From a virus (Duplodnaviria > Heunggongvirae > Uroviricota > Caudoviricetes), in IMG/VR virus record IMGVR_UViG_2740892423_000023, positions 1-34,951 of that record: a DNA stretch of 34,951 nucleotides; one strand, written 5' to 3'. Numbering within the stretch: the stretch's first letter is position 1; every line of letters starts with the position of its first letter. This document shows, one piece after another, positions 15,816-15,842 of this stretch. The translations under genes and the position numbers were made by a program. The notes under the pieces were generated by a model, which had not been told where the DNA came from, ran no database searches, and saw nothing but the letters and a program-made list of their open reading frames with translations.

Positions 15816-15842
15816 GGTACTGTGGAAGGTGTTCAGCACCCC
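15816..15842 (-). promoter_or_regulatory. Conserved 27-bp late-region motif upstream of I (candidate activator-dependent promoter element)
   Basis: Minus-strand GGGTGCTGAACACCTTCCACAGTACCC; near-identical copy at 23082-23108 upstream of lysis genes. Confidence 0.45.

What the first reader, a model, noticed from the sequence alone, without database searches (positions are those of the whole stretch)
15816..15842. 27-bp motif shared by the regions upstream of head and lysis operons
Minus-strand GGGTGCTGAACACCTTCCACAGTACCC lies just upstream of the I start candidates. GGGTGCTGAACACCCCCAGCAGTACCC lies at 23082-23108 upstream of the holin-like genes. Twenty-three of 27 positions are identical, far more than chance, and both sit where Mu has its C-dependent late promoters P_I and P_lys. 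This is a candidate binding site for the single Mor/C-family activator. The sequence is specific to this phage, so its specificity would be new information.
Basis: partly seen in the sequence, partly recalled or inferred. Interest (0 to 1): 0.5.

Follow-up and report, generated by a model that had tools for sequence, protein, structure and literature searches.

The report
Late-promoter activator boxes of a Mu-like prophage

Summary
It is 23/27 identical, and no shuffle reproduced it.

The window is a Mu-like E. coli prophage with one Mor/C-family gene (23449-23916). A third copy of the core, GTGCTGAACACC, lies at 3942-3953(-), upstream of the gp46-like baseplate gene.

In relatives from at least 10 enterobacterial genera (activator 44-82% identical), the gaps upstream of the lysis, I and gp46 genes all carry GCTGA-N6(C-rich)-TCA(G/A)C. 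This is a 16-bp imperfect dyad. A -10-like (T/C)AnnnT always follows at positions 40-45, and there is no -35. That places the dyad centre 31.5 bp before the -10, i.e. at -43.5, which is the published geometry of the Mu Mor and C sites.

At all 16 I and gp46 promoters examined, the ATG lies 6-7 nt after the -10 and has no Shine-Dalgarno sequence. This predicts leaderless mRNAs.

The core is therefore clade-wide rather than phage-specific. The flanks of the sites evolve in concert within each phage. An RNA-hairpin reading fails.

Verdict: new member of a known kind. Binding and transcript starts are untested.

The parts
23082..23108 (-). Late promoter box 1 (P_lys equivalent): the 27-bp motif. 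The 16-bp dyad GCTGAACACCCCCAGC is at 23104-23089.
   Evidence: Orthologous sites are present in all relatives.
23060..23065 (-). -10-like hexamer TACCCT of P_lys, at positions 40-45 from the G of GCTGAAC. The predicted transcript start is about 23051-23055, giving a leader of about 105 nt before the holin ATG at 22946, which has an SD (GGAG).
   Evidence: No sigma-70 -35/-10 pair was found here.
15815..15841 (-). Late promoter box 2 (P_I equivalent): the 27-bp motif. The 16-bp element GCTGAACACCTTCCAC is at 15837-15822.
   Evidence: Close relatives carry ...CCCTC(C/A)AC... at the same place.
15793..15798 (-). -10-like hexamer CATCAT of P_I. The I start codon ATG at 15785-15783 lies 7 nt downstream with no SD, so a leaderless start is predicted.
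   Evidence: PGAP places the protease start at the equivalent ATG in E. coli STEC316. The PHROG match begins at that Met.
3929..3955 (-). The 16-bp element is at 3951-3936. It starts directly after the stop of the gp45-like gene (3954-4607).
   Evidence: D17. It is conserved upstream of gp46 homologues in L043, L044 and L045 and in Klebsiella phage L046.
3907..3912 (-). -10-like hexamer CAGACT of box 3. The ATG of the gp46-like baseplate wedge gene at 3900-3898 lies 6 nt downstream with no SD, so a leaderless start is predicted.
23449..23916 (-). The only Mor/C-family activator gene (155 aa). It sits immediately after gemA, the position of mor in Mu. It is the presumed protein that binds the boxes.
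   Evidence: Pfam PF08765 scores 29.1 bits against a cut-off of 24.9. phrog_836 'late transcriptional activator' has E = 1e-42. The family profile hits Mu C structure 9l0x at E = 9e-4. No second family member was found in a six-frame hmmsearch.
23946..24005 (-). Intrinsic terminator (24005-23985) followed by the sigma-70-like promoter TGTACA-16-TATAAT (23973-23946), in front of the activator gene. Inferred to insulate the activator from the early operon.
   Evidence: The block is conserved in L016, L019 and L020.
22554..22946 (-). Holin gene, first gene of the lysis/packaging/head operon served by box 1.
14670..15785 (-). Mu I-like head protease/scaffold gene, first gene served by box 2.
3550..3900 (-). 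Mu gp46-like baseplate wedge gene, first gene served by box 3.
   Evidence: PF07409 GP46.

Best explanation
The motif is the upstream activator box of the prophage's late promoters. The window carries three such promoters on the minus strand, before the holin gene (lysis, packaging and early head genes), before the I protease gene (head and tail genes) and before the gp46-like gene (baseplate wedge and fibres).

Each promoter has three features:
- a 16-bp imperfect dyad, GCTGA, a six-base C-rich spacer, then TCA(G/A)C, with a few conserved flanking bases;
- no usable -35 hexamer;
- a -10-like hexamer (T/C)AnnnT exactly 39 bp after the first base of the dyad.

By analogy with Mu Mor and C, the 155-aa Mor/C-family protein (23449-23916) binds the dyad as a dimer or tetramer in two adjacent major grooves, centred at -43.5. 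There it substitutes for the missing -35 contact and recruits sigma-70 RNA polymerase. Because the phage has only this one family member, the Mu cascade Mor then C then late genes is collapsed into a single step.

At the I and gp46 promoters the ATG falls 6-7 nt after the -10, so the transcript is predicted to begin at the A of the start codon, i.e. to be leaderless.

Shown here: the sequence anatomy, the spacing and the conservation. Inferred: binding by this protein, activation, and the transcript starts.
For: 1. The motif is non-random and occurs only in intergenic gaps on the gene strand. The composite pattern (core plus -10) finds exactly 3 sites, against 0.05 expected.

2. Gene context is that of Mu P_lys and P_I, and there is a single Mor/C gene located after gemA.

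3. I compared 30 sites from the window and 16 relatives spanning Escherichia, Salmonella, Serratia, Xenorhabdus, Photorhabdus, Trabulsiella, Intestinirhabdus, Buttiauxella and Morganella, whose activators are 44-92% identical to the window's. Flanking sequence is randomised in these sites. Two blocks stay informative: positions -1 to 20 (the dyad) and positions 40-46 (the -10, with A41 and T45 in 30/30). In an unfiltered census of GCTGAA[CG]NC on the gene strand, every occurrence lying in a gap before a lysis, I or gp46 gene had the -10 (29/29). Only 4 of 19 other occurrences did.

4. The geometry equals Mu's. The Mor site is two 5-bp inverted repeats with a G/C-rich hexanucleotide spacer, forming a 16-bp element centred at -43.5 (PMC4390567). 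The C site is a 16-bp imperfect dyad centred at -43.5, and Mu late promoters have a -10 but no typical -35 (PMC2582627). In Mu's own sequence, the Pmom dyad ATTAT-GCCCCA-ATAAC is followed by TAAGAT at positions 40-45, the same offset.

5. No sigma-70 -35/-10 pair is detected at any of the three sites.

6. The activator's beta-linker (GGxxFYIPRC) and HTH (LCPxYGISDRxxW) are nearly invariant across the clade, which matches the invariant GCTGA half-site. The beta-linker and the HTH are the DNA-contacting elements in the Mu C cryo-EM complex (bioRxiv 10.1101/2025.05.02.651988).

7. Within a phage, the lys and I boxes are more alike at positions 7-24 (mean identity 0.74) than the same promoter compared between phages (0.63); permutation p = 5e-5. 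This is expected if all boxes in a phage track one protein.

8. A more distant phage, Klebsiella ST405-OXA48phi1.1 (activator 41% identical), has the variant box ACTGA-AGCCCN-TCAAY at the same three places with the same spacing.

9. For the leaderless prediction: the ATG is at position 52 or 53 in 12/12 I sites and 4/4 gp46 sites, with no SD. PGAP calls the same I start.
Against: - There is no experimental evidence: no transcript 5' ends, no binding data and no reporter data for this phage or any relative.
- The box sequence shares nothing recognisable with the Mu C or Mor boxes, and the protein is only about 27% identical to Mor over 78 residues. The pairing of protein and site therefore rests on analogy and co-occurrence.
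- In the window's own three sites the right half-site is degenerate (CCAGC, TCCAC, TCACC against TCAGC), so the dyad is clearer in relatives than here.
- Sites were found by seeding on GCTGAA, so positions 1-6 are invariant by construction.
- In the Klebsiella phage the annotated gp46 start is GTG at position 52, a poor codon for leaderless translation.
- The activator gene has its own near-consensus promoter. How that promoter is kept silent in a lysogen is unexplained.
Confidence: 0.8

Rival explanations
1. The motif acts at the RNA level. As a hairpin in read-through transcripts it would serve as a terminator, a processing site or a stabiliser between operons.
For: The lys and I copies fold into stable hairpins as RNA: -20.6 and -19.5 kcal/mol, with z-scores of -3.1 and -3.7.
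Against: - The two copies use different pairing schemes.
- The third copy does not fold (-3.3 kcal/mol, z = -0.26), and neither does the Morganella site.
- No U-tract follows any copy.
- No Rfam family matches.
- What is conserved across genera is the 5-N6-5 dyad and its fixed distance to a -10 hexamer and, at two promoters, to the ATG. A hairpin model does not explain those distances.
- If transcription starts as predicted, the box is not in the promoter's own transcript.
Confidence: 0.04
2. The boxes are bound by a different protein than the Mor-family activator. Candidates are the small ORF 23134-23421 (phrog_7152), GemA, or a host factor.
For: No direct evidence links the protein to the site. 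The box does not resemble the Mu C or Mor boxes. ORF 23134-23421 lies between the activator gene and box 1.
Against: - The 95-aa ORF is replaced by an unrelated ORF in relatives that keep identical boxes (L009 and L019), and it is absent in L025.
- The Mor-family gene is the one regulator present in every locus that has the boxes.
- The site's geometry matches that family's documented binding mode exactly.
- A host factor would not explain the phage-specific concerted changes.
Confidence: 0.1
3. The similarity is a by-product of recombination. The short conserved sequences would be module-boundary or gene-conversion tracts with no regulatory role.
For: In close relatives the mosaic junction between alternative upstream genes falls right at the left edge of box 1 (L009 against L003). 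Within-phage homogenisation of the boxes is seen.
Against: Pure recombination tracts would not keep an invariant half-site, a dyad, and a -10 hexamer at a fixed 39-bp offset in phages whose surrounding sequence is otherwise unalignable. Recombination at a conserved promoter is an expected consequence of conservation, not an alternative to function.
Confidence: 0.04

Closest known systems
Phage Mu C-dependent late promoters (Plys, PI, PP, Pmom)
   Same: They have a -10 hexamer without a -35 and a 16-bp imperfect dyad centred at -43.5 (PMC2582627). In Mu's own sequence, the Pmom dyad is followed by its -10 at the same 39-bp offset. The promoters lie before the lysis gene and the I gene. The Mu lys and I promoters also share a 10-bp match (PMC4461284).
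   Different: - The recognition sequence is unrelated: GCTGA-N6-TCAGC here, against ATTAT-N6-ATAAC at Pmom.
- There are three promoters, not four, and no mom.
- The third promoter sits before gp46, not before P.
- Mu I has an SD and, by my reading of the sequence, a leader of about 25 nt. Here I and gp46 are predicted to be leaderless.
- The activator occupies the position of mor, not of C.
Phage Mu Mor-dependent middle promoter Pm
   Same: Two 5-bp inverted repeats are separated by a G/C-rich hexanucleotide spacer, forming a 16-bp element centred at -43.5 that replaces the -35 (PMC4390567). The activator gene lies directly after gemA, as mor does in Mu.
   Different: In Mu, Mor drives only the middle operon that encodes C. 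Here the single homologue is inferred to drive the late operons directly. Protein identity to Mor is only about 27% over 78 residues.
Mor/C family tetramer-DNA-RNAP complexes (PDB 9l0x, 9l0y; bioRxiv 10.1101/2025.05.02.651988)
   Same: The reported footprint is about 26 bp, nearly three helical turns, just upstream of a poor -35. This matches the 27-28 bp block conserved between boxes 1 and 2. One relative (L016) has a perfect 10-bp inverted repeat spanning 28 bp around the same centre. The FYIP beta-linker and the HTH are conserved.
   Different: No structure or binding data exist for this subfamily. Several DNA-contacting residues of C differ; for example, the residue aligned with C R72 is Ala here.
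Leaderless phage and transposon mRNAs in E. coli (for example lambda cI from PRM), from general knowledge
   Same: The start codon lies at the predicted +1 and no SD is present.
   Different: Here the arrangement would head long late structural operons and is conserved across many genera. It is not experimentally mapped.

Membership tests
Mu-type Mor/C-dependent promoter | Recognisable -10 hexamer but no typical -35 hexamer | tested here: met
   (T/C)AnnnT is at positions 40-45 in 30/30 sites. The consensus scan finds no -35/-10 pair at any of the three window sites. The bases at the -35 position are AGTACC, AGTACC and TGATTC.
Mu-type Mor/C-dependent promoter | 16-bp imperfect dyad: two 5-bp inverted repeats separated by a G/C-rich 6-bp spacer | tested here: met
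   The clade consensus is GCTGA-ACCCCC-TCA(G/A)C, and the dyad is perfect in L029, L033 and L034. In the window the right arm matches only 3-4 of 5 bases (CCAGC, TCCAC, TCACC).
Mu-type Mor/C-dependent promoter | Dyad centred at -43.5, i.e. 31.5 bp upstream of the first base of the -10 | tested here: met
   The dyad centre is at position 8.5 and the -10 begins at position 40 in all sites. The same offset was measured in Mu Pmom. The -43.5 value depends on the transcript start, which is not mapped.
Mu-type Mor/C-dependent promoter | A Mor/C-family activator encoded by the same phage, upstream of the late genes | tested here: met
   Gene 23449-23916: Pfam PF08765 is above its cut-off, phrog_836 matches, and the profile hits the Mu C structure. 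It is the only family member in the window.
Mu-type Mor/C-dependent promoter | Sites precede the lysis, head (I) and tail operons | tested here: met
   The sites lie before the holin, I and gp46-like genes. The third site is two genes downstream of the P position used by Mu.
Mu-type Mor/C-dependent promoter | Activator binds the box and is required for transcription | not testable with these tools
   This needs EMSA or footprinting, reporter fusions and 5'-end mapping.
Mu C box or Mor box (sequence identity of the recognition site) | Sequence resembles Mu late promoters or Pmom (ATTAT-N6-ATAAC, CCCGCACCT...) | tested here: not met
   The Mu Plys, PI and Pmom regions share no recognisable sequence with GCTGAAC...; only the architecture is shared. 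The box therefore represents a different specificity class within the family.
Leaderless mRNA | Transcript 5' end coincides with the A of the start codon | not testable with these tools
   It is predicted from the ATG lying 6-7 nt after the -10 in 16/16 I and gp46 sites. No 5'-end data are available.
Leaderless mRNA | No Shine-Dalgarno sequence upstream of the start codon | tested here: met
   The sequences ccgtCATCATgccgcgtATG and tgcCAGACTggcggcATG contain no GGAG-like element. The holin gene, which has a long leader, does have GGAG.
Intrinsic terminator or structured RNA element | Conserved stem-loop (followed by a U-tract for a terminator), or a match to a known RNA family | tested here: not met
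   Hairpins form in only 2 of the 3 window copies and use different pairings. No U-tract follows them. There is no Rfam hit.

The most novel reading that the evidence does not exclude
A large clade of Mu-like prophages of Enterobacterales runs its whole late programme from one Mor-type activator that recognises GCTGA-N6-TCAGC. Two of its three late operons (head/tail and baseplate/fibre) are transcribed as leaderless mRNAs whose +1 is the A of the first start codon, an arrangement conserved across at least 10 genera. In the E. coli and Salmonella branch, the activator gene is also cut off from the early operon by a terminator and has its own near-consensus promoter with a conserved GATC. This would be a second, so far undescribed, control point for the lytic switch.
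Probability: 0.45. Interest if true: 0.5.

Novelty: new member of a known kind. Interest (0 to 1): 0.4.

Why it matters
- **A defined regulon.** The work gives a concrete, testable late regulon (three promoters, one activator, one recognition sequence) for a group of Mu-like prophages found in E. coli, including STEC isolates, in Salmonella and in many other Enterobacterales.
- **A second specificity class.** It adds a natural second specificity class to the Mor/C family, for which recent cryo-EM structures exist only for Mu itself. Comparing GCTGA-type boxes with Mu's ATTAT-type boxes, alongside the differing HTH and beta-linker residues, could show how this unusual activator family reads DNA.
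- **Better annotation.** The fixed promoter grammar can be used to annotate late operons and correct start codons in such prophages. It settles, for example, the I start at 15785.
- **Leaderless late mRNAs.** If the prediction is right, it would be a rare and conserved use of leaderless translation for major structural operons in gamma-proteobacterial phages.

Tried and rejected
- **Megablast against phage records.** Window 14000-25000 found no close relative; only a 240-bp early-region patch matched.
- **First genome-contig scan.** Using the single activator protein, it confirmed nothing. A second scan with the alignment worked.
- **Mu C/Mor box similarity.** I read Mu Plys, PI, PP and Pmom and the mor-gene18 region. 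No sequence similarity to GCTGAAC was found, and I could not confidently place the Mor box of Pm in the Mu sequence. Pmom was therefore used for the spacing comparison.
- **RNA element.** Folding and Rfam were both negative as a general explanation.
- **Extra sites.** GCTGAACGC at 21627(-), inside a coding region, has a -10-like hexamer at the right offset but lacks the C-rich spacer and the TCA arm, so it was judged to be chance. One-mismatch hits on the plus strand at 5493 and 6763 are antisense within genes.
- **Distant loci.** L032 and L037-L040 (activator 37-52% identical) gave no lys or I boxes with my pattern. L032 does not have the same gene layout. They were not pursued.
- **Shared operator search.** I looked for an operator shared by the activator's own promoter and the early control region. 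No k-mer of 9 or more was shared.

Full report
**1. Observation**

On the minus strand, GGGTGCTGAACACCTTCCACAGTACCC lies at 15815-15841. GGGTGCTGAACACCCCCAGCAGTACCC lies at 23082-23108. The two are 23/27 identical. The degenerate pattern with up to 3 mismatches finds only these two places, against an expectation of 0.00 in 100 dinucleotide-preserving shuffles. The repeat finder recovers the pair independently as a 28-nt family (D20).

**2. Context**

The window is almost a whole Mu-like prophage, read on the minus strand:

| Feature | Coordinates |
|---|---|
| Repressor-like gene | 34373-34951 (+) |
| Ner-like HTH | 33923-34126 |
| Transposase A | 31855-33930 |
| Transposase B | 30944-31837 |
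| Early genes | between B and GemA |
| GemA | 24012-24551 |
| Mor/C-family protein | 23449-23916 |
| 95-aa ORF | 23134-23421 |
| Holins | 22554-22946 and 22286-22570 |
| Endolysin | 21906-22334 |
| DUF1804 | 20984-21484 |
| Large terminase | 19291-20949 |
| Portal | 17696-19297 |
| F-like | 16543-17709 |
| G-like | 15995-16546 |
| I protease | 14670-15785 |
| Head and tail genes | downstream of I |
| Baseplate hub | 4604-5815 |
| gp45-like | 3954-4607 |
| gp46-like | 3550-3900 |
| Baseplate J, gp48-like, fibre and fibre assembly | downstream of gp46-like |

The prophage occurs at 95-99% identity in 58 of 5,426 complete E. coli genomes. It has no close relative among deposited phage genomes.

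A maximum-sensitivity hmmsearch of all six-frame ORFs with the family profile finds only one Mor/C-family protein (E = 5.7e-76; the next hit is 0.47). Pfam PF08765 scores above its gathering cut-off. The family profile hits the solved Mu C chain 9l0x at E = 9e-4. The gene sits directly after gemA, where Mu has mor.

**3. A third site**

Searching the conserved left part alone shows GTGCTGAACACC exactly three times: 3942-3953, 15828-15839 and 23095-23106. All three are on the gene strand in intergenic gaps (D17). The new site starts right after the stop codon of the gp45-like gene and ends 28 nt before the ATG of the gp46-like baseplate wedge gene. That part therefore cannot be the essential element.

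**4. Relatives**

I collected four sets of related loci:

- Eighteen IMG/VR contigs whose activators are 92-100% identical carry the motif at the same two places.
- Diverged homologues of the activator (82% down to 44% identity) were located by protein search and contig look-up and by a genome scan with the alignment.
- gp46 homologues were fetched for the third site.
- A phage record, Klebsiella ST405-OXA48phi1.1 (activator 41% identical), was read in full.

In every locus with the Mu-like layout, the gaps before the lysis genes and before I carry GCTGAAC followed by a C-rich stretch and TCA(G/A)C. So do the gaps before gp46 wherever they were fetched. The genera covered are Escherichia, Salmonella, Serratia, Xenorhabdus, Photorhabdus, Trabulsiella, Intestinirhabdus, Buttiauxella and Morganella, plus a metagenome.

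**5. Anatomy**

Thirty sites were aligned on the G of GCTGAAC as position 1. Flanking sequence is essentially random. Two blocks carry information:

- **Block A, positions -1 to 20.** The consensus is (T/C)GCTGAACCCCCTCA(G/A)CCGCT. Its core is two 5-bp inverted repeats, GCTGA and TCAGC, around a 6-bp C-rich spacer. The dyad is perfect in L029, L033 and L034.
- **Block B, positions 40-46.** The consensus is (T/C)A(C/T)N(C/A)T followed by G. A41 and T45 are present in 30/30 sites. This is a -10 hexamer.

Positions 1-6 are invariant by construction because they were the search seed. The other positions were not selected. In an unfiltered census of GCTGAA[CG]NC on the gene strand, every occurrence lying in a lys, I or gp46 gap had the -10 (29/29). 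Only 4 of 19 other occurrences did.

Within the window, the composite pattern (core plus -10) finds exactly the three sites, against 0.05 expected. None of the three has a -35: the bases there are AGTACC, AGTACC and TGATTC. The consensus scan finds no sigma-70 -35/-10 pair at any of them.

**6. Comparison with what is known**

The literature on Mu describes this architecture:

[quoted passage not shown] C binds a 16-bp imperfect dyad centred at -43.5 (PMC2582627).
- Mor binds two 5-bp inverted repeats separated by a G/C-rich hexanucleotide spacer, a 16-bp element centred at -43.5 that replaces the -35 (PMC4390567).
- In cryo-EM complexes, Mor and C occupy nearly three helical turns (a footprint of about 26 bp) just upstream of the poor -35. 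They contact two adjacent major grooves with the HTH and the beta-linker (bioRxiv 10.1101/2025.05.02.651988).

In the present sites the dyad centre is at position 8.5 and the -10 starts at position 40, a distance of 31.5 bp. This equals the distance from -43.5 to -12. I measured the same offset in Mu itself: at Pmom, ATTAT-GCCCCA-ATAAC begins at 35695 and TAAGAT lies at 35734-35739, i.e. positions 40-45.

The 27-28 bp block shared by sites 1 and 2 matches the size of the footprint. In one relative (L016) the lys box is a perfect 10-bp inverted repeat, GGTACTGCTG-N8-CAGCAGTACC, around the same centre.

The DNA sequence of the box is unrelated to the Mu C boxes. The protein is only distantly related to Mor and C. 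This is therefore a different specificity class with the same architecture.

**7. Protein-site co-evolution**

Across the clade, the beta-linker (GGxxFYIPRC) and the HTH (LCPxYGISDRxxW) of the activator are nearly invariant. This fits the invariant GCTGA half-site.

The variable parts of the boxes change together within a phage:

| Source | Shared variable part at the lys and I boxes |
|---|---|
| Window (E. coli) | ACACC...CAGTACCC |
| Salmonella L020 | CCC(C/G)GTCAAC |
| Morganella L036 | CCCCGCCAAC |
| Klebsiella phage (all three boxes) | ACTGAAGCCCNTCAAY |

At positions 7-24, lys and I boxes of the same phage are 74% identical. The same promoter compared between phages is 63% identical (permutation p = 5e-5). 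Paralogous sites that resemble each other more than orthologous ones point to concerted evolution around one reader protein.

The core is clade-wide, and the flanks and spacer are lineage-specific.

**8. Predicted transcript starts**

With the -10 at positions 40-45, the start should be at about position 52.

- **I promoters.** The ATG is at position 52 or 53 in 12/12 phages.
- **gp46 promoters.** The ATG is at position 52 in 4/4 phages.
- **Window values.** The sequences are CATCAT-gccgcgt-ATG (15785) and CAGACT-ggcggc-ATG (3900), with no Shine-Dalgarno sequence.

PGAP calls the same I start in STEC316, and the PHROG match begins at that methionine. A start codon held at +1 across otherwise unalignable sequence is hard to explain unless the mRNA is leaderless. 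I rate this sub-claim at about 0.55.

One caveat: the Klebsiella gp46 start is annotated as GTG at position 52.

The lys promoter behaves differently. It has a leader of about 105 nt and a normal GGAG before the holin ATG. Mu I has an SD and a leader of roughly 25 nt.

**9. Rivals**

- **RNA hairpin or terminator.** Copies 1 and 2 fold well but with different pairings. Copy 3 and some orthologues do not fold. No U-tract follows, and there is no Rfam match. Rejected.
- **A different binding protein.** The small ORF next to box 1 is replaced or absent in relatives that keep the boxes. The Mor-family gene is always present. A residual probability remains because binding is untested.
- **Recombination scar.** Mosaic junctions do fall at the edge of box 1. 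This cannot explain the dyad or its fixed spacing to the -10 and the ATG.

**10. Regulatory picture (inferred)**

One Mor-type activator switches on three late operons directly. This is a two-tier cascade instead of Mu's three tiers.

In the window, and in the Salmonella and L019 relatives, the activator gene is separated from gemA by a strong intrinsic terminator (24005-23985). It also has its own promoter, TGTACA-16-TATAAT (23973-23946), with a conserved GATC in the spacer. What keeps this promoter silent in lysogens is unknown.

**11. Verdict**

The finding is a new member of a known kind: Mor/C-dependent late promoters with a new recognition sequence. Its bonus is a sharp, testable prediction of leaderless late mRNAs. 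Nothing here is experimentally verified. 5'-end mapping and a gel shift would settle it.

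Noticed in passing
window 23946-24005 (-): An intrinsic terminator, AGCCCCTGCcttGCAGGGGCT followed by TTTTTT, lies directly after gemA. It is followed by the near-consensus sigma-70 promoter TGTACA-16-TATAAT in front of the activator gene. The block CTGTACA-N3-GATCA-N6-G(G/A)CTATAAT, which includes a GATC (Dam) site, is conserved in L016, L019 and Salmonella L020. In other relatives mor overlaps gemA instead. How this promoter is kept off in a lysogen is unexplained.
   Followed up: partly
window 15878-15902 and 15972-15988 (-), in the G-I gap: A perfect palindrome, CGTTTTTAAAA-GGG-TTTTAAAAACG, and the block ACAAACGCGCTGTAATC just after the G stop are conserved in Serratia, Xenorhabdus, the metagenome locus and the Klebsiella phage. 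They resemble Mu 17885-17935, next to Mu's annotated strong gyrase site cut (17879/80). This is probably a homologue of the Mu central gyrase site.
   Followed up: partly
window 28147-28202 and 28772-28827: A 56-nt direct repeat (86% identical) contains a GGCGTAA...TTACGCC hairpin. The two copies flank the 183-aa ORF 28211-28762, which has no Pfam match. It looks like a small cassette bounded by repeated hairpins in the early region.
   Followed up: no
window 4009-4036 (-): A sigma-70-like promoter match, TTGACG-16-TAAAAT (10/12), lies inside the end of the gp45-like gene, about 58 nt upstream of the third activator box. It may be chance or a constitutive or auxiliary promoter.
   Followed up: no
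L046 (Klebsiella phage ST405-OXA48phi1.1, MK388859.1) 8343-8738, 9268, 18063, 29749: The Mor-family gene of this deposited phage is not annotated. The phage has the variant box CCCACTGAAGCCCNTCAAY before the lysis, I and gp46 genes, with the same -10 offset. Its gp46 start is GTG at position 52.
   Followed up: partly
L035 (Morganella morganii CP173058.1) about 9900-10000: A box-like site, ACTGAACCCCTTCAAC, with AATACT at positions 40-45 lies upstream of the activator gene itself. It is followed immediately by a terminator hairpin (AACACCTTCCG-CATC-GGAAGGTGTT-TTTTATTT). This suggests positive autoregulation with attenuation in that phage.
   Followed up: no
window 22947-23050 (-), holin leader: The predicted lysis transcript has an untranslated leader of about 105 nt with hairpin-forming segments. 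One of them, GGGCCGTCAGTGGCTC, is conserved in L019 as AGGCCGTCAGTGGCCT, just before the SD. It may control lysis timing after transcription.
   Followed up: no
window 15935-15956: The hairpin GCCTCAT-GG-ATGAGGC lies just downstream of the G-like gene. The scan scores it as a terminator only on the plus strand. The Salmonella relative has a clear gene-strand terminator at the same place (L020 about 19755-19785). This suggests the lys operon ends before P_I.
   Followed up: no
L025 (Xenorhabdus) 4315-4779 and 5328-5786: This relative carries two Mor-family genes, like Mu's Mor and C, whereas the window and most relatives carry one. The clade therefore includes both one-activator and two-activator cascades.
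   Followed up: no
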